This document shows, one piece after another, positions 578-14,700 of a DNA stretch of 22,063 nucleotides. Where the stretch lies: the IMG/VR virus record IMGVR_UViG_2778261447_000003; one strand, 5' to 3'. Position 1 is the first letter of the stretch. Every line of letters begins with the position of its first letter. Source of the DNA: a virus. Its lineage: Duplodnaviria; Heunggongvirae; Uroviricota; Caudoviricetes. A model generated the notes under the pieces. The model saw only the letters and a list, made by a program, of their open reading frames with translations. It was not told where the DNA came from and did not search any database. The position numbers and the translations under genes were made by a program.

Positions 578-1411
578 TTATTTCTGTAATCGGTTTATAT
601 TAACGTAAAGCATCTCGATTAGTTCTTTTGCATTTTTACTATAGTGCAATTCTCTATGGCAATTCGGACAAAGGGCAACACAGTTATCTGTTGTATCAGC
701 ACCACCTGAAGACAGGGGAATTACATGATGCACTTCCAAATATGGGTTTCCATCATTTAAATAAAACGGAGCATTTTTACCACAGTTTTCACATATACCT
801 TTACTTTGCTGTAAAATCCAAGCTTTTACCATCGGGTCTCGGACATAAACTTTTTGTAGTCTTTCTACCTCAACTGGTTTCCTGGAGCCCTCGGGTTGAC
901 TCAACGTTTTCTTAATTAATTTACTAACCCTCATATTCAGAAGCGATTCATCATCTGTAGGCTGTGAAAGCTCTGATAGTTCTCCACGTATTATAGACGC
1001 CCAAAAACTGTCACTATAAATACCTGGAACATTTATCAATATTCGTTTCGTTCTATTGCCGGAAGGAATTTCCTTTCTCCCCGTACGACTAAAATAAGCC
1101 TGATAACCACACATCTTCAAGCGTATATCGCGGGGGCTATTACCAATCAAAGAAAAATATTCACCAGGATGGATTTTTCTTTCATCCAAAGAATGCATAT
1201 GTTTTCTGACTGATGATGACGCCAGATATACTACGACTTGGGATACACCAGAATCAACCAACCGTTCAATGATATAATCAAGAGCGATATTGTAATCTTT
1301 GTTTCTGTCACCCGGCCCCCACGACTCAAGGATTAGACCATAAACACCATCCTCTTCACCTATCGAACACTCAGCTTTCAGTTCAATTCCATTGTTATCA
1401 AAAACATGCAT
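578..1411 (-). CDS. mcrA: McrA, 5-methylcytosine-specific HNH restriction endonuclease (277 aa)
   Basis: Complete ORF with ATG start. C-terminal HNH motif CENCGKNAPF...EVHHVIPLSSGGADTTDNCVALCPNCHRELH. Length and position next to pin at the prophage end match e14 mcrA (recalled). The gene is AT-rich relative to the structural module. Confidence 0.88.
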   Translation of the reverse strand: MHVFDNNGIELKAECSIGEEDGVYGLILESWGPGDRNKDYNIALDYIIERLVDSGVSQVVVYLASSSVRKHMHSLDERKIHPGEYFSLIGNSPRDIRLKMCGYQAYFSRTGRKEIPSGNRTKRILINVPGIYSDSFWASIIRGELSELSQPTDDESLLNMRVSKLIKKTLSQPEGSRKPVEVERLQKVYVRDPMVKAWILQQSKGICENCGKNAPFYLNDGNPYLEVHHVIPLSSGGADTTDNCVALCPNCHRELHYSKNAKELIEMLYVNINRLQK

Positions 1412-1517: not shown

Positions 1518-2072
1518 TTATTTATCCCCTGCAGGAAACCTCTTATACAAAGTTGACACACCAACATCATAGATAATCGCCACCTTCTGGCGAGGAACTC
1601 CTGATGCAATTAATCGTCCGGCCTGTTCCCATTGTTCTGGTGTAAGTTTGGGACGACGTCCACCAATTCGTCCCTGTGCGCGAGCAGCTTCCAGTCCAGC
1701 TTTTGTTCTTTCAACAATCAGTTCACGCTCCATTTCAGCCAGGGCACCCATCACATGAAAGAAAAAGCGCCCCATTGGGGTACTGGTATCAATTGAATCC
1801 GTCAGACTACGAAAGTTGATGCCTCGTTCGCGCAACTCCTCCACCAGCACGACAAGATGCCGCATACTGCGCCCCAGTCGGTCCAGTTTCCAGACCACCA
1901 GCGTATCACCTGCCGATAATGTCCTGAGCAGTTTTTTCAGTCCCGGCCTTTCGGACTTTGTACCGCTTATCTTGTCTTCAAAAATCAGCTCGCATCCTGC
2001 ACAGTTCAGCGCATTACGTTGTAGATCTGTGTTCTGGTCATTTGTTGACACACGTACATAGCCAATAAGCAT
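1518..2072 (-). CDS. pin: Pin/Gin/Hin-family serine DNA invertase (184 aa)
   Basis: N-terminus MLIGYVRVSTNDQ contains the catalytic serine motif of small serine recombinases; a helix-turn-helix lies at the C-terminus. I place the start at the ATG at 2070-2072, which has an AGGGAG Shine-Dalgarno about 8 nt upstream, not at the track start 2108. Adjacent to inverted crossover sites. Confidence 0.9.
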   Translation of the reverse strand: MLIGYVRVSTNDQNTDLQRNALNCAGCELIFEDKISGTKSERPGLKKLLRTLSAGDTLVVWKLDRLGRSMRHLVVLVEELRERGINFRSLTDSIDTSTPMGRFFFHVMGALAEMERELIVERTKAGLEAARAQGRIGGRRPKLTPEQWEQAGRLIASGVPRQKVAIIYDVGVSTLYKRFPAGDK

Positions 2073-2126
2073 GGTAGATCTCCCTGACAAAAGCAGGAAT
2101 GATGCCATTTGCTCGTTATTTCTGCA

Positions 2127-2152
2127 TTTTCATAAACGTTGGTTTGGGAGAA
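2127..2152. repeat. Invertase crossover site, left (hix/gix/pix-like 26-bp site)
   Basis: ttttcataaacg-tt-ggtttgggagaa. The inner 14 bp (2139-2152) are a perfect inverted repeat of 4012-4025. Resembles the hix/gix 12-2-12 architecture (AAAACC..GGTTT). Confidence 0.75.
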
Positions 2153-2650
2153 GGCTCTGCATTACCTGTTGGGGTTCCTGTTCCGTGGCCTTCAGCCACT
2201 CCGCCAACAGGCTGGCTGAAATGCAACGGAGCAGCTTTTTCTGCTGAAGAATACCCGGAGCTGGCAAAGGCTTACCCGACAAATAAATTGCCTGATTTAC
2301 GTGGTGAGTTTATTCGTGGCTGGGATGACGGACGTGGTATGGATACGGGGAGGGCAATATTATCCGCTCAGGGCGATGCCATACGTAATATCTATGGTGA
2401 GTTCAAGACTGTAAACACCGAAAATTATTCAATATGGGAATCAGTAGGCTCGTTTAAGGGGGCAGTAGTGCCTTTGAACCCCTCAACGAACAATAGTTAT
2501 TTCTCCTTAATCAGAAGTATGGTGACAGAAAGAACAGATGGCGCTGTTTACCCAAAAGTGATTGGCCTTGATGCTTCAAGAATTGTTCCAACTGCAAACG
2601 AAAACCGTCCTCGTAACATTGCCTTTAATTATATCGTGAGGGCTGCCTGA
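2141..2650 (+). CDS. Silent alternative tail-fibre C-terminal cassette (variable receptor-binding part), expressed only after inversion
   Basis: Frame is continuous from the crossover site. Encodes LPVGVPVPWPSATPPTGWLKCNGAAFSAEEYPELAKAYP, the phage tail-collar type motif of Mu/P2-type fibre C-termini. The ATG at 2099 in the ORF track lies outside the segment and is probably not a real start. Confidence 0.65.
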   Translation, partial: GLGEGSALPVGVPVPWPSATPPTGWLKCNGAAFSAEEYPELAKAYPTNKLPDLRGEFIRGWDDGRGMDTGRAILSAQGDAIRNIYGEFKTVNTENYSIWESVGSFKGAVVPLNPSTNNSYFSLIRSMVTERTDGAVYPKVIGLDASRIVPTANENRPRNIAFNYIVRAA

Positions 2651-3252
2651 TGAATAAAGCCGTATTAAATAACGAACTCATTGCCATAAAAGCGGGAGTC
2701 ATTACCATTTATAATTATGATGGTGAAACGCGGGAATATATTTCCACATCAACTGAATATCTTGCGGTTGGCGTCGGTATCCCGGCATGTTCTTGTTTAG
2801 ATGCACCAGTTACACATAAAGCTGGTTATGCAATCTGCCGTTCTGCAGATTTTAACTCATGGGAATATGTGCCAGACCATCGCGGTGAAATCATCTATAG
2901 CACCGAAACAGGAGAATCGAAAGAAATCACAGCTCCGGGTGATTATCCTGAAAATACAACCACTATCGCCCCGTTAACGCCATACGATAAATGGGATGGT
3001 GAGAAATGGGTGACGGATACCGAGGCACAGCATAGCGCCGCAGTAGAAGCGGCAGAAGCACAGCGCCAGTCGCTGATTGATGCTGCAATGGCTTCCATCA
3101 GTCTGATTCAGCTGAAATTACAGGCCGGGCGGAAGCTGACGCAGCCAGAAAACACCCGACTTAACGCTGTGCTGGATTATATTGACGCGGTGACGGCAAC
3201 AGATACCAGCACAGCGCCGGACGTCATCTGGCCTGAACTGCCGGAGGCGTAG
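2650..3252 (+). CDS. Tail fibre assembly protein (Tfa/gpU-like, 200 aa), alternative orientation set
   Basis: Start ATG overlaps the stop of the upstream cassette (TGATG). C-terminal motif DYIDAVTATDTSTAPDVIWPELP is typical of Tfa chaperones. Possibly the tfaE counterpart. Confidence 0.8.
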   Translation: MNKAVLNNELIAIKAGVITIYNYDGETREYISTSTEYLAVGVGIPACSCLDAPVTHKAGYAICRSADFNSWEYVPDHRGEIIYSTETGESKEITAPGDYPENTTTIAPLTPYDKWDGEKWVTDTEAQHSAAVEAAEAQRQSLIDAAMASISLIQLKLQAGRKLTQPENTRLNAVLDYIDAVTATDTSTAPDVIWPELPEA

Positions 3253-3664
3253 GCCATTCAATATCTGGCGCACCGGAAGTATCGACCAGTTCCAGTGCGT
3301 CCAGATAATCCAGCCACAAATTATATTGCGCCAGTTCCTCACCTTTCAGGCGACCAATCGCCGCTTTACCAGGCCATTGCTTACTGTTTATGTATTCGTT
3401 GACCTGATTAATCAATTGCTGCTTTTCCAGTTCGGCTGCGGCAATTTGTTCCTCATGAGTTGGCGGTGGAATATCAATCCATGCAGGCATTCCGTCGATG
3501 ACACCTCTGTATTTTCCTTCTGGTGCTTCCTTCATAAATTCGGCGGCAACAGTGTCGTCAATTTCGATTCCATCACCGGGCCATTCGCCGGATTCCTGAT
3601 AAGCGATTTTAAGCTCCACAGGGAAAAACGCATTTTTATCGGCACTGAAAATATATTTCTGCAT
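3224..3664 (-). CDS. Tail fibre assembly protein (Tfa/gpU-like, 146 aa), currently expressed set
   Basis: Immediately downstream of the tail-fibre gene. C-terminal motif WLDYLDALELVDTSGAPDIEWPTPP. Its 3' end overlaps the convergent tfa gene by 29 nt. Confidence 0.8.
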   Translation of the reverse strand: MQKYIFSADKNAFFPVELKIAYQESGEWPGDGIEIDDTVAAEFMKEAPEGKYRGVIDGMPAWIDIPPPTHEEQIAAAELEKQQLINQVNEYINSKQWPGKAAIGRLKGEELAQYNLWLDYLDALELVDTSGAPDIEWPTPPAVQAR

Positions 3665-3666
3665 TT

Positions 3667-4314
3667 CTACCGTCCTATCGAAATATAACTGAATCTGTAT
3701 TGCTGTGAGATATCACTGGTTGCCACACGCCACGCTGAATTACTGATATGTTCAAAATTTACAGACAAAACCTGCGGGGCAGGATTCGACGGGTCTGACT
3801 GAACGGCATCAGACATAACACTGACTGAAACCATCGGCTGATTAGGGAATGGTATAGGGAAGTGTCCACTGATAAAGCGGGTCGTGTTTCCTGAAAAAGT
3901 GCCAAACTGAACAATATATCCACCTGGTAGCCTGAACCATCCCGAACCAGAAGCGAATGCTCCCATATCCGGTATCTGATTATCTCCTGTGCCCACATTC
4001 CGTTTTGCCGCTTCTCCCAAACCAAGGTTTTCGAGAGCCGTTTTCACCGTGCCATCCGATTTGATATCGCCAAACGGATTCTTGCGGCTTAACAGCAGCG
4101 CACGAAGCGCGGTAAGCAGCTGGTCGTGCCGCGCCTTCTCCAGGCTGGCACCGGATGCCTCCACCACGCTACAAAGCTCTTCCTGCAACATGTCAAAGTA
4201 GTCATCATCCAGATCGGTGGCAGGCGTGCCGGTCTGGGGGTTGCCACGGGTAAAACCGTTCTTACCCGCGCCGAACTTATCCTTCTGCGCGGTTTTCGTG
4301 TCTATGCGATGCAT
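3667..4314 (-). CDS. Tail fibre protein (215 aa): constant N-terminus of about 97 aa fused through the right crossover site to a variable C-terminus
   Basis: ATG at 4312-4314 with GGAG Shine-Dalgarno. The crossover site is read in frame as ENLGLGE. Synteny places it between the baseplate genes and tfa. Possibly the stfP counterpart. Confidence 0.7.
4012..4037. repeat. Invertase crossover site, right (hix/gix/pix-like 26-bp site)
   Basis: ttctcccaaacc-aa-ggttttcgagag; its reverse complement is ctctcgaaaacc-tt-ggtttgggagaa. The inner half is identical to the left site; the outer half is close to the hix consensus. Confidence 0.75.
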
Positions 4315-9375: not shown

Positions 9376-11211
9376 TTACCTGCCAAAGCGCGTATAGCCA
9401 ACATCATGGCTGACATCAAAACCGCTGGATCGCGTTTCCATAACCCGCATACCCGGAGGCGAATTCATAAAAGAGACCTTGATCTCACCATCAACTTTTG
9501 GCGCAGAAGCTTTGTTAATCATGAAGGGATTCGGGCCTGTGGCACCGGAGGCGTTGTTTGACTGAGCCGGATCTACCGCCGGATAAGGTGTGTATCCCCG
9601 CGCCGGTATTCCCGTCCCATAAGCATCATAAGCACCCGCGCCCCACTGCGCAGAGTTAATGGCATCGACCGTGTCACCGGAACTGTCGGTAAACCACTCA
9701 ATAATTGGCTTCAGCTTGTCCCACATATCCTGAAACCACTTAACAACCGGCCCCCAGTTATTGATCACCATCCCCAGCGGCGACCAGGCAAAAACTTTCT
9801 TAAGGAGTTCCCAGCCAGCCTCAAAATAAGGACCAATGGTTTCCCAGAGTTTCTTAAAATAAGGTCCGACAACATCCCAGTTAGTGATAATTAATCCCGC
9901 AGCCAGGGCTATCGCCGTCGCAATCATGCCAATCGGCGTCATCGACATGATCCTGCTGACAATACTGATGGCACCGCCAACGCCCATCAATCCCAGTTTC
10001 AGAATCGCAAGACCGGCAGCAAGCCCGACGACGCCGCGAATAACCCGGGGATTTTCATCCGCAAACTTCGTGAATTTTTCCCCCAACTCCCCCAGCCATT
10101 GCGTGATATTTTTAGCGTCACCAGAAAATGCGCCGCCAATAGCTGCAAGACCGTTAGTTGCGGTCCCCGTCATTGCCTCCCACAGGTTGGACAGCGTACC
10201 AAGCTGGGCCTGAACACGTTTATTCAGGCTGGCCTGTTTATTCATCTTCTGCTGGATCTGATCGTAGCCATCCTTTCCTTTATCGATCAGAGCATTGACC
10301 ACCTGAAGGGTTTCGGCATCATCACCAAATATTGCCTTAAGTACACCGGTTCGCTTAACGTCGGTCAGTTTTCGCAGCTTTGCCAGTTGCCTGAACATGT
10401 TATCAAGACCGCCAAAACTCCCTTTGCCATCAGTAAAATCGAGCTGTACCCCGAGTTTCTGGCGGGCCATGATTTTATTGACGTCCCTGATTTTCTTAAC
10501 GCTTAATCCGGACTGGATAACTTTTCGCAGGGCATTACCTGCCGACTCCCCGTTCATCCCCATCTGATCCATCATGACACTGATGGGGGCAAGACTCTGT
10601 GCAGCCTGAAGACCGTCCTTATTCACCATCTTCAGAACAGAGCTGGTTTTAGTGAAGAATGACAGCATGTTGGTGTCGTCAACGCCCAGATAAAACGCCT
10701 TCTGAATTGTGTCGAACAGCCCCATCATGTCTTCTGAGGCCGTTCCGGTAGCATCCTGCATCTTTGCGGCAAACTCGGCAGCCGCTTCCGGTGTTTTTTT
10801 CAGTTGTACCGCAAGATAAGCTGTCGCTTTACCCACACCACCCAGAATGTTTTCTGCCGGGATCCCCTGACGCACCAGCATCTGCATCATGTTCTGGAAA
10901 TCAGCCGTTGTACCGGGTAGCTGGTTACCCAGGCCAATAGCCAGTTTATTGATGTCCTGAAAGCTCTTTCCAACCTCGCCGTTCGCATCCATCATGGCGA
11001 CTTTCAGCCCGGTAGCGGCGTTTTCCTGATCGGCATAAGATTTCAGGGAAAGCGTCAGCCCCGCTGCCAGTCCGCCACCAAGCGCCAGCCCACCCTGTGA
11101 CGCCTCTTCCGCCTGGCGTTTAAATCCCCGGATTTTCTTTTGCATTTTCGACAGCGCGGGAGAAAGCCTGTCGACACCGGTGATCAACGCCTTAAGCTCA
11201 AATTCAGCCAT
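9376..11211 (-). CDS. Tail tape measure protein (611 aa)
   Basis: Large protein rich in Ala, Gly and Met with a hydrophobic Gly-rich central segment, directly downstream of the chaperone frameshift pair. ATG has an AGGAGA Shine-Dalgarno. Confidence 0.85.
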   Translation of the reverse strand: MAEFELKALITGVDRLSPALSKMQKKIRGFKRQAEEASQGGLALGGGLAAGLTLSLKSYADQENAATGLKVAMMDANGEVGKSFQDINKLAIGLGNQLPGTTADFQNMMQMLVRQGIPAENILGGVGKATAYLAVQLKKTPEAAAEFAAKMQDATGTASEDMMGLFDTIQKAFYLGVDDTNMLSFFTKTSSVLKMVNKDGLQAAQSLAPISVMMDQMGMNGESAGNALRKVIQSGLSVKKIRDVNKIMARQKLGVQLDFTDGKGSFGGLDNMFRQLAKLRKLTDVKRTGVLKAIFGDDAETLQVVNALIDKGKDGYDQIQQKMNKQASLNKRVQAQLGTLSNLWEAMTGTATNGLAAIGGAFSGDAKNITQWLGELGEKFTKFADENPRVIRGVVGLAAGLAILKLGLMGVGGAISIVSRIMSMTPIGMIATAIALAAGLIITNWDVVGPYFKKLWETIGPYFEAGWELLKKVFAWSPLGMVINNWGPVVKWFQDMWDKLKPIIEWFTDSSGDTVDAINSAQWGAGAYDAYGTGIPARGYTPYPAVDPAQSNNASGATGPNPFMINKASAPKVDGEIKVSFMNSPPGMRVMETRSSGFDVSHDVGYTRFGR

Positions 11212-11352
11212 GTGTGCGTTTCTCCTGCTCTATCCTGTTTGCCTGACTGACCAGCAAGGGAATTTCACTGATCGGCATATTCAGCAATTCGAAGGGATTA
11301 ATGCGCCAGTAGCTGGCGCAGTCAAAGAAGCGATCAGTGAGGTATTCAGCCG

Positions 11353-11622
11353 TCAGGCCTGGAGGAAAAAACCAGCCACAAGCCACGCCGCTGCATTCAG
11401 GTCTGCCGGAGACATCTGGTCGACAGAGCTTTGCGGCACTTTCGCCAGCCGCACAATGTATTTCGACACCACATGCGCCAGAAGTCTGACGGACTCATCC
11501 TGATTCATCTGGTAGGGATACCCCAGCTCGCGAACATCCTTCCCGGTGGGTTCATCAAACTCCAGTACGGAGAGTGTCTCACCATGAGCGATAATCGGTT
11601 TCTTTAACTCAAGCTCTTTCAT
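11353..11622 (-). CDS. Tail assembly chaperone (Mu gp41 / lambda G-like, 89 aa); zero-frame product
   Basis: Lies between the tube and tape measure genes. Contains a slippery heptamer 4 codons before its stop, with a -1 frame ORF continuing to the tape measure start. Confidence 0.65.
   Translation of the reverse strand: MKELELKKPIIAHGETLSVLEFDEPTGKDVRELGYPYQMNQDESVRLLAHVVSKYIVRLAKVPQSSVDQMSPADLNAAAWLVAGFFLQA
11365..11371 (-). other. Candidate -1 programmed ribosomal frameshift site (slippery heptamer T_TTT_TTC)
   Basis: Minus-strand codons GGT TTT TTC form the X_XXY_YYZ motif T TTT TTC in the zero frame. The -1 frame is open from here to the TGA at 11204-11206, which overlaps the tape measure ATG at 11209-11211; the predicted fusion is about 139 aa. 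Confidence 0.6.
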
Positions 11623-11978
11623 TACTGGTAATCCCCTTCTTCACCGTGGAACTCAAGATCAACCGTCCCTTCTTCGGCATTATGGTTCGCTTCTCCGTGC
11701 AGCCAGGCGGACGACAATACATAGACCTGACCGTTCGCCAGCTCGGCAGTGATGGTCATCTCATCAGACGAGGTGATTTTGTTCACCGGAAAATTCTTCG
11801 GCACCTTGAAGGTCCCTTTGACATAAGGCGCACGGTGAGTTTCCTTGCGGTCCACTGAACCGTCCAGGCCGATGATGTCATCATTGACCGTCCTGTTCAT
11901 GGGCACCTCAATGCCGCCGGTCAGCGATAGCTGCTGACCGTCAATTTTGAAATAACAGGTTCCCCCGATACGGGCCAT
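11622..11978 (-). CDS. Tail tube protein (118 aa)
   Basis: Immediately downstream of the sheath gene (start overlaps the sheath stop, TAATG); size fits a Mu-type tube protein. Confidence 0.6.
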   Translation of the reverse strand: MARIGGTCYFKIDGQQLSLTGGIEVPMNRTVNDDIIGLDGSVDRKETHRAPYVKGTFKVPKNFPVNKITSSDEMTITAELANGQVYVLSSAWLHGEANHNAEEGTVDLEFHGEEGDYQ

Positions 11979-13474
11979 TATGCAGACTCCTCTGAATACT
12001 GAAGACGGAACTGGTTAACCACGGCAAAAACACGCAACTGGTTAACATAGTCAGGCGGGAACAGCGTGTTCAGGCGGTTCGGATCGCTGGCATCACGCTC
12101 CACAACCAGGTACTGCTTAAACAGTTCGTAGTTTTCCACGATCCCCGCACGCTCAAGCTGACGGTAGGTTGCCAGCAGTTCCCCTTTGATTACCGCCGGG
12201 GTGACAATCGCCTGACCGGGACCAAAGCGGGTACCGTCGCTGGCAAGCTTGTGACGCCCGTACTTACTGGTAATGACGGATTTCAGTTTGCGCAGTACAT
12301 ACGCGCTGGTATGCAGCGTCTCGCTGTCGAGGTAGCTGTTATCCGCAACACCGTAAGCATTTTTCCTGTACGTGGTGACATCACGCTGAATGCGCAGCAC
12401 CCCGCTTTCGACATACGCCGTTGCCACGCCATGAGACAGCAGGGTCTGCTGCTCGGTCATCGTGAACCGTTTCCCCTTCGGCGCAGGCAACATACCTACC
12501 AGCTCACCGGTCTGCGTGGGACGTGCCGGATCGTTGCGGATAAACACCGCTGCGCGGGCGGTACGGCTTGCCGCCAGCTCGTCGGCAGGCGTCTGGGTCT
12601 CTTTTTCGTACCCCGCCAGGGTGATGTGCTGCTGGTTAAACTGGTCACCTGCGTTCACCAGTTCTGACAGTGTGCCGGTCTTTGCCGTATACACATGACC
12701 ATACAGCTGACGCGCATAGCTCCAGCGACCGCTGGTATCGTTCATCTCGGTCACCAGCGTGTTAACGGAGGCCGTGTCGTTGAACGGCAGACCGATATAA
12801 TCAAACGGCTCATCCGCCATTGCAGCCACCGCGCCGGTGAGAACCGGAGCGCCCGTTCCGGCGGTCCCCGTCGCCACGGCAATCTGTACGCCCGCTGGCA
12901 GTACTTCGCCCCCACCGAAGCCGTAGTAATTGAGGCTGACAGGAATTTCATTCCCGCAAAGCCCCTTATGACGCGCGGTCAGCGTGACAACACCAGCCGA
13001 AGATGAAGCTGTAAACGGCAGAGTCGGAACGGCATTGATGGCATCTTTGATACTGCTGGCAATCGTCGTGACGTTATCGCCGTTGGTCACCGGAGCCTGC
13101 ACGCGGGTACGTCCCACATAGACATTCACCGTGCCGCTTTCGGTTGCTTCCCCGGTCACCGTCAGCGTAACCGTTGCCGCCGCGCCTGTGGCTTCCGGAA
13201 CGGCAATCACATACAGCTCACCAAACGGGTCGGTCTGGCGATAAGCCTCGACCATACGCGCCAGCTGACTTCCCGCACCACAAATCTGGCGTGCATAGTC
13301 TGCCGACGGCATCAGCACCAGACTGTTGGCAACAATCTCTGCACCGTTATTGGCATGACCAATCAGCAGCGATGCTCCGCTGTCCTGTGCAGTATTCGCC
13401 GCCTGGTTATCCATTTCCGCATAAAACAGCGGAACCAGCGTATTCGACGGAATGGTGTTAAAGCTTATCGTCAT
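11978..13474 (-). CDS. Contractile tail sheath protein (Mu gpL-like, 498 aa)
   Basis: N-terminus MTISFNTIPSNTLVPLFYAEMDN resembles myovirus sheath N-termini; size about 500 aa; followed by tube and chaperone genes. Confidence 0.85.
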   Translation of the reverse strand: MTISFNTIPSNTLVPLFYAEMDNQAANTAQDSGASLLIGHANNGAEIVANSLVLMPSADYARQICGAGSQLARMVEAYRQTDPFGELYVIAVPEATGAAATVTLTVTGEATESGTVNVYVGRTRVQAPVTNGDNVTTIASSIKDAINAVPTLPFTASSSAGVVTLTARHKGLCGNEIPVSLNYYGFGGGEVLPAGVQIAVATGTAGTGAPVLTGAVAAMADEPFDYIGLPFNDTASVNTLVTEMNDTSGRWSYARQLYGHVYTAKTGTLSELVNAGDQFNQQHITLAGYEKETQTPADELAASRTARAAVFIRNDPARPTQTGELVGMLPAPKGKRFTMTEQQTLLSHGVATAYVESGVLRIQRDVTTYRKNAYGVADNSYLDSETLHTSAYVLRKLKSVITSKYGRHKLASDGTRFGPGQAIVTPAVIKGELLATYRQLERAGIVENYELFKQYLVVERDASDPNRLNTLFPPDYVNQLRVFAVVNQFRLQYSEESA

Positions 13475-13636: not shown

Positions 13637-14197
13637 TCAGGAAGGAAGGGTTATTTCGGTGTGATGTTCGATATCGCCGTCAGGCCCGTTACCGGGATCG
13701 AGATAATCAACATCAATCGCCAGCGTTCGCAGTTCATCCAGACTGTTCAGGTCATCCTGCTGGCGGGTATCGTCTTCGGTCAGCTCGCTGATGACCGAAA
13801 AATCGAACTGATAAATCAGCTCATGACGATTCAGATCCAGTAGCGTGCCGCCGTCATAGGTAATCGGGTTACCGCACGCTTCCGGGTTCCAGCCCAGCAG
13901 GGCCTTAAAGAGCATCTGCCGGACATCGTCCACCACATCATACGAGGTAAACTGACCGCGCTCATCACGCCCGTTACTCAGTATGACAACCACGGAGAAA
14001 CCCTCTTTCAGCTCCTGCCAGTAGTCGGTCTGGCTTTTGTTTTCTCCCGGAGAATCATCACCCGGTACAACATATGCCGCCGGGAGTTTCAGCTTTCCGA
14101 CCTCCGGCAGATTTTTGAACTGGGCCGCGCCTGCAACCCGGTTTTCAAAATACGGACAGCGGGCACGCAGTGCAGCAATAACAGGCGTCAGTTTCAT
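13637..14197 (-). CDS. Mu gp37-like neck/tail completion protein (186 aa)
   Basis: Start overlaps the upstream stop (ATGA); position between head-tail joining genes and sheath. Confidence 0.55.
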   Translation of the reverse strand: MKLTPVIAALRARCPYFENRVAGAAQFKNLPEVGKLKLPAAYVVPGDDSPGENKSQTDYWQELKEGFSVVVILSNGRDERGQFTSYDVVDDVRQMLFKALLGWNPEACGNPITYDGGTLLDLNRHELIYQFDFSVISELTEDDTRQQDDLNSLDELRTLAIDVDYLDPGNGPDGDIEHHTEITLPS

Positions 14198-14700
14198 CTG
14201 TGTCGTCGCTCCGGCTTCAGTGATTTACGCAATTCCCGCGCCAGAAAATAGCGTGTCCAGCTGCGGTTCTTTTCAAGCGTTTCCACCATGAAGTTATTAC
14301 GTGGAGCCAGTCGCCAGCCGCTGCCACCGGATGCACCACGATGATGGCTGCGACGACGCTTTGCCCCTCGCCTCACGCCATAGAACAAAAAAGCCGGATA
14401 AAAATCACCGGTGATACGGCGGTTTCCCTCTCCATTACGCTGGTTAGGGGCTATACGTGCCATAAAACCAGGACGATGTTTACTGGCTCTGGGTACCATG
14501 TAACCAATCGAACGAGCCAGGCGTCCGGTCTGATAACCGGGGTTTTCACCCGGTGCCGACCGCGCACGGCGCATCACCAGCCGACGGGCATCACGCATAT
14601 GACGCTGACCAATCGTGACAAACGCCCGCCGGACACGGGCGCGGTTAAAGCGCATCTCCGCGGGCTGCTGAAAATCAACGTGCAAAAAGGAAGTCGCCAT
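14194..14700 (-). CDS. HK97 gp10-like virion morphogenesis/neck protein (168 aa)
   Basis: Arg-rich basic protein; ATG with GGAGG Shine-Dalgarno; position after the head-tail adaptor. Confidence 0.55.
   Translation of the reverse strand: MATSFLHVDFQQPAEMRFNRARVRRAFVTIGQRHMRDARRLVMRRARSAPGENPGYQTGRLARSIGYMVPRASKHRPGFMARIAPNQRNGEGNRRITGDFYPAFLFYGVRRGAKRRRSHHRGASGGSGWRLAPRNNFMVETLEKNRSWTRYFLARELRKSLKPERRHR

What the first reader, a model, noticed from the sequence alone, without database searches (positions are those of the whole stretch)
11204..11622. Programmed -1 frameshift in the tail assembly chaperone, ending exactly at the tape measure start
The zero-frame chaperone (89 aa) contains a perfect X_XXY_YYZ slippery heptamer T_TTT_TTC (11365-11371) four codons before its stop. 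The -1 frame is open for a further 53 codons and terminates at a TGA that overlaps the tape measure ATG (ATGGCTGA). This reproduces the conserved G/GT-type chaperone frameshift of long-tailed phages. The predicted fusion is about 139 aa.
Basis: partly seen in the sequence, partly recalled or inferred. Interest (0 to 1): 0.55.

Follow-up and report, generated by a model that had tools for sequence, protein, structure and literature searches.

The report
Unannotated tail-chaperone frameshift, SfV-type prophage
An SfV/SfII-like prophage makes a short and a long tail assembly chaperone from one gene by a conserved -1 ribosomal slip on UUUUUUC, as phage P2 does with genes E and E+E', so this is an ordinary known mechanism that public annotations of this phage group leave out.

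Summary
An 89-aa chaperone (11353-11622, Pfam PF10109) lies between the tail tube and tape measure genes. It carries an in-phase T_TTT_TTC at 11371-11365. The -1 frame then runs 53 codons to a TGA inside ATGGCTGA, the tape measure start, giving a 139-aa fusion.

In 25 related loci (100% to 38% chaperone identity) T_TTT_TTY sits at the same codon, and the preceding codon always ends in T whether it encodes Gly, Arg or Asn. The -1 ORF is always 50-59 codons and ends at the tape measure start. Its dN/dS is 0.10, against more than 1.2 in the other frames. Twelve of 23 loci have no start codon for it. No in-frame fusion exists among 1.84 billion representative proteins.

The layout matches P2 E/E+E' (91/142 aa, T_TTT_TTG, same 8-nt overlap). 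Mu, whose tail genes are otherwise the closest, uses -2. No canonical stimulator follows the site. A perfect 8-bp hairpin 45 nt downstream is frozen at synonymous sites in many loci and is unexplained.

None of the six phage records and two RefSeq E. coli records I opened marks the slippage. This is a new member of a known kind, of low to moderate interest.

The parts
11353..11622 (-). Zero-frame tail assembly chaperone gene (89 aa plus stop), the short gpE/gpG-like product.
   Evidence: ORF and translation. Pfam PF10109 Phage_TAC_7, E 2.4e-15, 56.7 bits against a cut-off of 25. RefSeq names it 'phage tail assembly protein' WP_000661047.1.
11365..11371 (-). Slippery heptamer T_TTT_TTC in X_XXY_YYZ phase (codons GGT TTT TTC, residues G84 F85 F86).
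   Evidence: Sequence. T_TTT_TTC or T_TTT_TTT is invariant at the homologous codon in all 25 related loci analysed. The preceding codon is GGT, CGT or AAT and always ends in T. GGT TTT TTC CCT is one of only two runs of invariant degenerate codons in the gene. 78 of 80 IMG/VR loci keep T6C.
11204..11365 (-). The -1 frame extension: 53 codons (PPGLTAEYLTDRFFDCASYWRINPFELLNMPISEIPLLVSQANRIEQEKRTHG) plus TGA. It is the E'/T-like C-terminal domain of the 139-aa fusion.
   Evidence: Translation. The extension is 50-59 codons in all relatives, with conserved residues A103, W106, P110, R130 and I131. dN/dS is 0.10 in this frame against 1.22-1.48 in the other two. It matches phrog_32181, E 3e-41. No start codon for it in 12 of 23 loci.
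11204..11211 (-). ATGGCTGA: an 8-nt overlap of the tape measure ATG (11211..11209) with the TGA stop of the frameshift product (11206..11204).
   Evidence: The same octamer, or a 1-nt variant of it, is present in most relatives, and in the rest the -1 stop lies within a few nt of the tape measure start. P2 has the same geometry, ATGAGTAA.
11222..11226 (-). AGGAG Shine-Dalgarno-like sequence 10 nt upstream of the tape measure ATG, lying inside the -1 extension (codons for EQEK).
   Evidence: Read directly. That it is the tape measure ribosome binding site is an inference.
9376..11211 (-). Tape measure protein gene (611 aa), in the same frame as the chaperone's zero frame.
   Evidence: ORF. PF10145 PhageMin_Tail, E 1.3e-26. 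Annotated as tape measure protein in SfII and in RefSeq E. coli.
11622..11978 (-). Tail tube gene (118 aa) immediately upstream. Its stop overlaps the chaperone ATG.
   Evidence: PF10618 Tail_tube, E 3.3e-33.
11302..11320 (-). Perfect 8-bp hairpin UGCGCCAG-CUA-CUGGCGCA inside the -1 extension (codons C A S Y W R), starting 45 nt 3' of the heptamer. Its role is unknown.
   Evidence: Folding. Stem codons TGC GCC .. TAC TGG CGC are invariant at synonymous sites in 10 distinct loci with mean dS about 1, while the loop and the flanking third positions vary. The stem is also intact in L025/L026, which have 55% chaperone identity. It is absent in 7 of 23 loci and shortened to 6 bp in L020. It is the only copy of this palindrome in the window.

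Best explanation

Inferred mechanism: most ribosomes read GGU UUU UUC CUC CAG GCC UGA and release the 89-aa chaperone. A minority slip with tRNA-Phe in both the P site (UUU) and the A site (UUC). Both tRNAs re-pair one base back, on UUU UUU. Those ribosomes then read CCU CCA GGC... for 53 codons and stop at the UGA that overlaps the tape measure AUG, giving a 139-aa protein. That protein has the same PF10109 N-terminal domain plus a conserved C-terminal domain.

Inferred function, by analogy with lambda G/GT and P2 E/E+E': the shared N-domain coats the tape measure protein. The rarer extension recruits the tube subunit, so a fixed ratio of the two products directs tube polymerisation around the tape measure. 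Neither product ends up in the virion.

Shown here: the signal, its phase, its conservation, coding selection on the -1 ORF, and its dependence on upstream translation. Not shown here: that the slip happens on the ribosome, its efficiency, and the roles of the two proteins.
For: 1. Anatomy. The in-phase T_TTT_TTC lies four codons before the stop, and the 53-codon -1 ORF ends in ATGGCTGA at the tape measure start.
2. Position. The gene lies between the tube gene (PF10618) and the tape measure gene (PF10145), and the chaperone is PF10109.
3. Conservation. 21 genome loci from Shigella, Edwardsiella, Buttiauxella, Citrobacter, Atlantibacter, Scandinavium, Kluyvera, Erwinia, Pantoea, Kosakonia, Enterobacter and Derxia carry T_TTT_TTY at the homologous codon. 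So do an SfIV-type E. coli prophage and phages AH07, F1055 and phiP27. Each has a 50-59-codon -1 ORF ending at or within a few nt of the tape measure start, while the zero-frame tail after the site varies from 3 to 21 codons.
4. Nucleotide-level constraint. The codon before the run is GGT, CGT or AAT and always ends in T. GGT TTT TTC CCT are invariant while neighbouring synonymous sites vary.
5. Coding selection. dN/dS of the part of the -1 ORF that no other gene overlaps is 0.10 in the -1 frame, against 1.48 and 1.22 in the other frames.
6. No independent initiation. 12 of 23 loci have no ATG, GTG or TTG between the upstream -1-frame stop and the slip site, and none of the others has a Shine-Dalgarno sequence.
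7. No in-frame version. Among 1.84 billion representative proteins the extension occurs only as orphan ORFs of 53-70 aa. Fusion-length database entries are indel-ridden singletons.
8. Precedent. P2 has E of 91 aa and E+E' of 142 aa, T_TTT_TTG at codon 84 in '...VVGF|L', PF10109 at the N-terminus and the same 8-nt overlap with T. That site is an accepted -1 translational frameshift (PMC3091744, citing Christie et al. 2002 and Xu et al. 2004). A profile of the window family aligns with a P2-type profile over 116 columns in register through the slip site (hhalign E 9e-5, probability 59%).
9. Motif competence. U_UU.U_UU.C is one of 18 heptamers classed as efficient and under-represented in E. coli genes. 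Measured shifting is 0.12% without a stimulator, 0.89% with the IS911 stimulators and 7.6% with the IS3 pseudoknot. P2's UUUUUUG gives 0.12%, 0.25% and 0.77% (PMC4066793 and its supplement).
Against: - No experiment on this element was found, so the product and its ratio are unmeasured.
- The bare-motif efficiency in reporters is only about 0.12%, roughly twice background.
- No conserved stimulatory structure lies at +4 to +43 (z about 0 in 16 of 18 loci), and I saw no conserved upstream Shine-Dalgarno-like sequence by eye. What would raise the shift to a useful level is therefore unknown.
- One of the two peptide patterns used to collect the genome loci contained 'FF', which biases that sample at the amino-acid level, though not at the codon level.
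- The extension does not reach any Pfam model, including PF06528, the model for P2's E' domain.
- A slip by RNA polymerase on the T6 run would give the same protein and is not excluded by sequence alone.
Confidence: 0.85

Rival explanations
1. Transcriptional slippage. RNA polymerase stutters on the T6 run (A6 in the template) and adds one U to a fraction of transcripts. Normal translation of those mRNAs then gives the identical 139-aa protein.
For: The shift site is a homopolymer: T6 here, and T7 in the SfIV, phiP27 and F1055 type and in L022/L023. A +1-U transcript encodes exactly ...GFFPPGL... (reasoning). Productive polymerase slippage is known in bacteria (PMC5009743).
Against: The review describes bacterial slippage on runs of 9 A or T (PMC5009743), and this run has 6. 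The run never grows beyond 7 in any relative, although longer runs would slip better. It is always in the X_XXY_YYZ phase. The homologous P2 site is described as a translational frameshift (PMC3091744).
Confidence: 0.07
2. Two separate genes. The 60-aa ORF 11204-11386, with a GTG start, is translated on its own, as some records annotate it, and no fusion is made.
For: A GTG lies 5 codons upstream of the slip site in the -1 frame. vB_EcoM-689R6 annotates this ORF as a hypothetical protein. Gene callers produce such 53-70-aa ORFs.
Against: The GTG has no Shine-Dalgarno sequence. 12 of 23 related loci have no ATG, GTG or TTG in that interval. Where a start codon exists it arises from the Ala/Gly-Trp codons of the zero frame. 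The heptamer and the T-ending preceding codon would have no reason to be invariant.
Confidence: 0.03
3. Decay or error. A once-continuous 139-aa gene was broken by a 1-nt indel in a homopolymer, either as a pseudogene or as a sequencing artefact.
For: Homopolymers are indel-prone. Some database entries show fused or differently broken versions (P0001-P0006). One IMG/VR locus, L104, has a run one base shorter.
Against: The same two-frame arrangement is present in 1063 of 5426 complete E. coli genomes, in isolated infectious phages (SfV, SfI, SfII, SfIV, ST64B, phiP27) and in lineages down to 38% identity. The fused entries carry several indels each and are singletons. No in-frame form exists among 1.84 billion representatives.
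Confidence: 0.01

Closest known systems
Phage P2 gpE / gpE+E' (FETUD tail operon), -1 frameshift at T_TTT_TTG
   Same: Both belong to contractile-tail phages, with the gene between the tube and tape measure genes. The N-domain is PF10109 in both. Sizes are 91/142 aa against 89/139 aa. The slip is on a U6 run at codon 84 against 85, within '...V(V/A)GF|x'. The extension is 57 against 53 codons. The stop of the long product overlaps the tape measure ATG by 8 nt, ATGAGTAA against ATGGCTGA. Neither has a stimulatory hairpin near the site (PMC3091744).
   Different: The last base of the heptamer is C (or T) instead of G. The extension does not match PF06528, and the profile comparison of the extension alone is weak (E 0.007, probability 5.5%). 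The rest of the tail module is Mu-like, not P2-like. P2-type sites are annotated in some records (EtG, KL3, and NCBI's 'GpE family phage tail protein'). This type was not annotated in any record I opened.
Phage lambda gpG / gpGT, -1 frameshift at G_GGA_AAG
   Same: The logic is the same. Two chaperones share an N-terminus and are made at a set ratio by a -1 slip near the end of the gene upstream of the tape measure gene. The long form ends next to the tape measure gene, and neither is in the virion (PMC5009743).
   Different: Lambda has a non-contractile tail, a different slippery motif (tRNA-Lys) and no detectable sequence similarity. The lambda ratio of about 30:1 is measured; this one is not.
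Phage Mu gp41 with its -2 frameshift
   Same: The surrounding tail genes are Mu homologues: sheath L, tube M, DUF2635 (gp38), the DNA circularisation protein, gp44-48. Mu gp41 also touches PF10109 weakly (E 2.5e-5). Mu's extension shows, by eye, a similar A-x6-P-x3-L-x2-P-[IL]-S...QA pattern.
   Different: Mu gp41 is 144 aa and belongs to PF23746, which the window protein does not match. It has no X_XXY_YYZ heptamer, and its shift is -2 (PMC5009743, PMC2628397).
E. coli dnaX and IS3/IS911-type -1 frameshift cassettes
   Same: Tandem tRNA slippage on an X_XXY_YYZ heptamer in E. coli.
   Different: Those cassettes have an upstream Shine-Dalgarno-like sequence and/or a stem-loop or pseudoknot 5-9 nt downstream, and shift at tens of percent. 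Here nothing conserved lies at that spacing.

Membership tests
G/GT-type tail assembly chaperone frameshift (Xu, Hendrix & Duda 2004) | The gene lies between the major tail/tube gene and the tape measure gene. | tested here: met
   Tube gene 11622-11978 (PF10618), chaperone 11353-11622, tape measure gene 9376-11211 (PF10145).
G/GT-type tail assembly chaperone frameshift (Xu, Hendrix & Duda 2004) | [quoted passage not shown] | tested here: met
   T_TTT_TTC at codons 85-86 of 89, in X_XXY_YYZ phase.
G/GT-type tail assembly chaperone frameshift (Xu, Hendrix & Duda 2004) | An overlapping shifted-frame ORF extends the protein and ends near the tape measure start. | tested here: met
   53 codons, with the TGA inside ATGGCTGA. 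The same holds in all relatives.
G/GT-type tail assembly chaperone frameshift (Xu, Hendrix & Duda 2004) | The arrangement is conserved among relatives independently of sequence similarity. | tested here: met
   25 of 25 related loci down to 38% identity. dN/dS is 0.10 in the -1 frame.
G/GT-type tail assembly chaperone frameshift (Xu, Hendrix & Duda 2004) | Both products are made at a fixed ratio and both are needed for tail assembly. | not testable with these tools
   This needs a reporter assay, a Western blot or mass spectrometry, and genetics.
Pfam PF10109 Phage_TAC_7 (chaperones E, 41, 14) | The score is above the Pfam gathering threshold of 25 bits. | tested here: met
   56.7 bits, E 2.4e-15, residues 4-86 on model positions 2-78 of 79. 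P2 gpE scores 47.8 bits.
Pfam PF06528 Phage_P2_GpE (the E' extension domain of P2) | The extension matches the model above threshold (23 bits). | tested here: not met
   No hit for the fusion or for three extension peptides even at E 10. The P2 control scores 76.3 bits.
Pfam PF06528 Phage_P2_GpE (the E' extension domain of P2) | Remote homology of the extension by profile-profile comparison. | tested here: inconclusive
   Full-length profiles: probability 59%, E 9e-5, in register through the slip site. Extension alone: E 0.007, probability 5.5%, aligning FDCAxYWRINPxELL with MADIAVIFHWPPSEL.
Mu gp41 type (PF23746, -2 frameshift) | A Gp41_Mu domain and a -2 shift on a G-run. | tested here: not met
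   No PF23746 hit for the window protein, against E 9e-35 for Mu gp41. The window extension is in the -1 frame, not the +1/-2 frame.
Canonical bacterial -1 PRF cassette (heptamer plus stimulator) | An X_XXY_YYZ heptamer that allows re-pairing of both tRNAs. | tested here: met
   U_UUU_UUC. It is listed among the efficient motifs in E. coli (PMC4066793).
Canonical bacterial -1 PRF cassette (heptamer plus stimulator) | A stem-loop or pseudoknot 5-9 nt downstream, or a Shine-Dalgarno-like sequence 6-17 nt upstream. | tested here: not met
   Folding of +4..+43 gives z about 0 in 16 of 18 distinct loci. The only conserved hairpin starts at +45. No conserved Shine-Dalgarno-like sequence is visible in the 20 nt upstream (by eye only).

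The most novel reading that the evidence does not exclude
The perfect hairpin UGCGCCAG-NNN-CUGGCGCA, 45 nt downstream of the slip site (11320..11302), may be a functional RNA element of the recoding cassette. Its stem is frozen at synonymous sites in lineages that have otherwise saturated synonymous change. It could be a distal modulator of frameshifting. It could also control mRNA stability, Rho access or tape measure initiation in the 141-nt stretch that only shifted ribosomes translate. If so, SfV-type phages would set the chaperone ratio or tape measure expression through a non-canonical long-spacer structure. A further point of note is that Mu-like tail modules have switched between -2 and -1 recoding while keeping the product architecture.
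Probability: 0.15. Interest if true: 0.45.

Novelty: new member of a known kind. Interest (0 to 1): 0.25.

Why it matters
The biology is textbook. Long-tailed phages make two chaperones by a frameshift upstream of the tape measure gene, and the P2 E/E+E' case has the same layout.

What is useful here is practical. The SfV, SfI, SfII, SfIV, ST64B and phiP27 group of serotype-converting and Stx-associated temperate phages carries the site, as do their prophages in about a fifth of complete E. coli genomes (1063 of 5426). In each of the eight records I opened, either a 141-nt (or, in the SfIV/phiP27 type, 84-nt) gap is left unannotated or a spurious 60-aa 'hypothetical protein' is called. So an essential tail protein is missing from their proteomes.

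The data also show that the recoding mode (-1 on U6Y) tracks the chaperone type rather than the rest of the tail module, because Mu uses -2. Finally, they point to a conserved hairpin of unknown role that could be tested.

Tried and rejected
1. Natural in-frame fusions as 'Rosetta stone' evidence. The three full-length database hits (P0001-P0003) and the partial ones (P0004-P0006) are singletons with several indels each, so they are assembly errors. A search of 1.84 billion representatives with the extension found only orphan ORFs of 53-70 aa plus three spurious repeat proteins.
2. A canonical downstream stimulator. None is conserved at +4..+43. RNAalifold pairs near the site involve upstream sequence that the ribosome would have unwound.
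3. The idea that the +45 hairpin is a shared feature with P2. P2 has CAGUGA-UAUU-UCACUG over the homologous codons at +67. Of nine further Peduoviridae-type loci, only EtG keeps a weakened 5-bp form. Four show other folds there, and in four my motif search did not locate the region. I dropped this as coincidence.
4. The palindrome as a repeated DNA site. There is only one copy in the window.
5. Assigning the extension to PF06528, or to any NCBIfam model. There was no hit. Only phrog_32181 (unknown function) matches.
6. Solved structures. There was no meaningful PDB sequence match to the fusion profile.
7. Structure prediction of the fusion.
8. Literature on this specific site. Nothing was found for SfV or SfII plus frameshift, or for TTTTTTC plus tail. 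The SfIV genome paper does not mention it. The five prophage clusters of the E. coli-wide heptamer screen do not include it. The SfV genome paper, Christie et al. 2002 and Xu et al. 2004 are not held, so I cannot say whether Xu's list of 28 phages includes SfV.
9. An IMG/VR scan with the extension profile. It returned 80 loci, all identical in the peptide, which is useful for prevalence and run-length stability only.
Full report
WHAT IS THERE

The window is a late-gene block of an SfV/SfII-type temperate phage or prophage, and all the relevant genes are on the minus strand. The 601 bases around the finding are 99.3% identical to Shigella phage SfII and 98.2% identical to SfV and SfI. They match 1063 of 5426 complete E. 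coli genomes.

Pfam assigns an HK97-like head: terminase, portal, S78 protease and capsid. It assigns a Mu-like contractile tail: sheath 11978-13474, tube 11622-11978, tape measure 9376-11211, the DNA circularisation protein, homologues of gp44-48, and tail fibres.

Between the tube and tape measure genes lies an 89-aa ORF (11353-11622). It matches PF10109, 'tail assembly chaperone E/41/14', at E 2.4e-15.

CHECK OF THE OBSERVATION

- The ORF ends GCT GGT TTT TTC CTC CAG GCC TGA.
- T_TTT_TTC lies at 11371..11365 in the X_XXY_YYZ phase.
- After a -1 slip the frame reads PPGLTAEY... for 53 codons, to a TGA at 11206..11204.
- That TGA lies within ATGGCTGA, whose ATG starts the tape measure gene.
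- The fusion is 139 aa and the junction is ...AGFFPPGL....

A heptamer alone is not remarkable. The window has 17 in-phase X_XXY_YYZ heptamers in 6811 codons. Only this one opens a -1 ORF that continues beyond the zero-frame stop, and the other 16 give 0-32 codons, all internal to their gene.

COMPARATIVE EVIDENCE

A scan of one genome per bacterial species with a chaperone alignment returned 21 loci. They run from Shigella (100% identity) to Derxia gummosa (38%). I added an SfIV-type E. coli prophage and phages AH07, F1055 and phiP27.

In all 25 loci, T_TTT_TTC or T_TTT_TTT sits at the homologous codon (residues 82-87). The -1 ORF is 50-59 codons and stops at, or within a few bases of, the tape measure start. 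Most loci have the same ATGGCTGA.

The zero-frame tail after the site varies freely, from 3 to 21 codons. So what is preserved is the site and the -1 ORF, not the zero-frame end.

One of the two search patterns contained 'FF', which biases the genome sample at the protein level. The nucleotide-level signal is independent of that bias. The codon before the run is GGT, CGT or AAT, encoding three different amino acids and always ending in T. The first Phe codon is always TTT.

Across ten distinct loci with mean dS about 1, degenerate codons that never vary cluster in two places only. One of them is GGT TTT TTC CCT. By permutation, the probability of two or more such runs is 6e-4.

The -1 ORF is coding. 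dN/dS is 0.10 in the -1 frame, against 1.48 and 1.22 in the other frames. Residues A103, W106, P110, R130 and I131 of the fusion are invariant down to 35% identity.

The -1 ORF cannot be a free-standing gene. Twelve of 23 loci have no start codon between the upstream -1-frame stop and the slip site, and none of the others has a Shine-Dalgarno sequence.

There is no in-frame version anywhere. Fusion-length database entries are indel-ridden singletons. A search of 1.84 billion representative proteins with the 55-aa extension finds only orphan ORFs of 53-70 aa.

In IMG/VR, 78 of 80 loci with the identical peptide keep T6C. The run is therefore not a sequencing accident.

WHAT IT WORKS LIKE

The closest known case is phage P2.

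- E is 91 aa and E+E' is 142 aa.
- The slip is at T_TTT_TTG, at codon 84 in '...VVGF|L'.
- The N-terminus is PF10109.
- The E+E' stop overlaps the ATG of the tape measure gene T by 8 nt.

That site is accepted as a -1 translational frameshift and is conserved in P2-like phages (PMC3091744). I found T_TTT_TTG in 9 of 10 Peduoviridae-type loci.

A profile of the window family aligns with a P2-type profile over 116 columns, in register through the slip site (E 9e-5, probability 59%).

The extension on its own is only weakly similar (E 0.007) and fails the Pfam model PF06528. I therefore treat homology of the extension as unproven, and the resemblance in mechanism and architecture as strong.

Phage Mu has the closest homologues of the surrounding tail genes. 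Its chaperone is different: 144 aa, PF23746, no heptamer, and a -2 shift (PMC5009743).

The functional model rests on the lambda work summarised in PMC5009743. In that model the N-domain coats the tape measure protein, the extension recruits the tube protein, the ratio of the two products matters, and both leave the finished tail. For this element that model is an inference.

MECHANISM AND ITS WEAK POINT

Tandem slippage of tRNA-Phe from UUU-UUC to UUU-UUU is plausible. U_UU.U_UU.C is among 18 motifs classed as efficient and under-represented in E. coli genes.

Its bare efficiency is only 0.12%. It rises to 0.89% with the IS911 stimulators and 7.6% with the IS3 pseudoknot. P2's motif gives 0.12%, 0.25% and 0.77% (supplement of PMC4066793).

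I found no conserved structure at +4..+43 (z about 0 in 16 of 18 distinct loci) and saw no conserved upstream Shine-Dalgarno-like sequence by eye. What sets the real efficiency is therefore unknown. P2 is likewise reported to lack a nearby downstream hairpin. The review gives its efficiency as two to three times that of lambda, whose product ratio is about 30:1.

It is disfavoured because the run is only 6-7 nt, whereas the review describes bacterial slippage on runs of 9. The run never lengthens in any lineage, and it keeps the ribosomal phase.

AN UNEXPLAINED EXTRA

The second cluster of frozen synonymous sites is TGC GCC (AGN) TAC TGG CGC. It forms a perfect 8-bp hairpin, UGCGCCAG-NNN-CUGGCGCA, at 11320..11302, starting 45 nt after the heptamer.

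- The loop base and the flanking third positions vary, while the stem does not.
- The hairpin is also intact in L025/L026, which have 55% chaperone identity.
- It is absent in 7 of 23 loci and shortened to 6 bp in L020. There are no compensatory changes, so the support is synonymous constraint, not covariation.
- It is too far downstream for a canonical stimulator.
- It lies in the stretch translated only by shifted ribosomes.

A similar hairpin over the homologous codons of P2 is not kept in the other P2-like phages where I could locate the region, so I do not generalise from it.

ANNOTATION STATUS AND NOVELTY

None of the records I opened marks the slippage. These were SfII, SfV, vB_EcoM-689R6, AH07, F1055, phiP27 and two RefSeq E. 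coli chromosomes. They leave a 141-nt gap (84 nt in the SfIV/phiP27 type) or call a 60-aa hypothetical protein.

P2-type sites, by contrast, are annotated in some records.

An E. coli-wide screen for conserved heptamers listed five prophage clusters, and this one was not among them.

I could not read Xu et al. 2004, the SfV genome paper or Christie et al. 2002. I therefore cannot exclude that the site was tabulated there.

VERDICT

This is a new, unannotated member of a well-known kind. It is of low to moderate interest, with a small open question about the distal hairpin.

Noticed in passing
window 11302-11320 (minus strand): Perfect 8-bp hairpin or palindrome UGCGCCAG-CUA-CUGGCGCA inside the -1 extension, 45 nt 3' of the slip site. 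Its stem codons are invariant at synonymous sites in ten distinct loci with mean dS about 1, and the stem is also intact in L025/L026. It is absent in 7 of 23 loci and shortened in one. There is no covariation, and it is the only copy in the window.
   Followed up: partly
window 1518-4314: A Gin/Pin-type DNA invertase gene (1518-2108, minus strand; PF00239 plus PF02796) lies next to a segment of about 1.9 kb. The segment is bounded by 20-nt inverted repeats (2134-2153 and 4011-4030, 95% complementary). It holds tail-fibre C-terminal parts and two fibre-assembly genes in opposite orientations. It looks like a Mu G-segment-type invertible host-range switch.
   Followed up: partly
window 578-1411 (minus strand): A 277-aa protein with an HNH endonuclease domain (PF01844, E 3.6e-15) lies beyond the invertase, at the edge of the tail-fibre region.
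   Followed up: no
window 11212-11352, and the same stretch in SfII, SfV, AH07 and RefSeq E. coli (L001, L002, L004, L029): Public records leave 141 nt between the chaperone stop and the tape measure start unannotated, or call a 60-aa GTG-initiated 'hypothetical protein' (vB_EcoM-689R6). A match to the region is present in 1063 of 5426 complete E. coli genomes. I opened two of those records, and neither annotates the frameshift product.
   Followed up: yes
window 14386-14392 (minus strand), in ORF 14194-14700: A second in-phase U6 heptamer, T_TTT_TTG, lies at codon 104 of a 168-aa head-tail gene with no Pfam match. Its -1 ORF is 29 codons and ends inside the gene. It is probably chance.
   Followed up: no
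L006 (phage Mu) 3950-4130: The +1/-2-frame extension of Mu gp41 after GGGGGCGA reads ...DIEKAATAIGVILKSGPEWALSLPLSRFFRHCQQAKTL. By eye it shares an A-x6-P-x3-L-x2-P-[IL]-S...QA pattern with the window's -1 extension and with P2's E'. This hints at one ancient extension domain reached by different shifts.
   Followed up: partly
L088 and L104 (IMG/VR contigs), at the position homologous to window 11365-11372: Two of 80 otherwise near-identical viral contigs have a damaged slip site. L088 has GGG TTT TTC, in which the first T of the run is replaced by G. L104 has a run one base shorter plus substitutions. They may be defective prophages or sequencing errors.
   Followed up: no
proteins P0001-P0006 and P0243, P0244, P0246: Database 'fusion' proteins of this family are products of indel-ridden assemblies. 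Three long repeat proteins score against the 55-aa query only through summed repeats. Both are traps for automated interpretation.
   Followed up: yes
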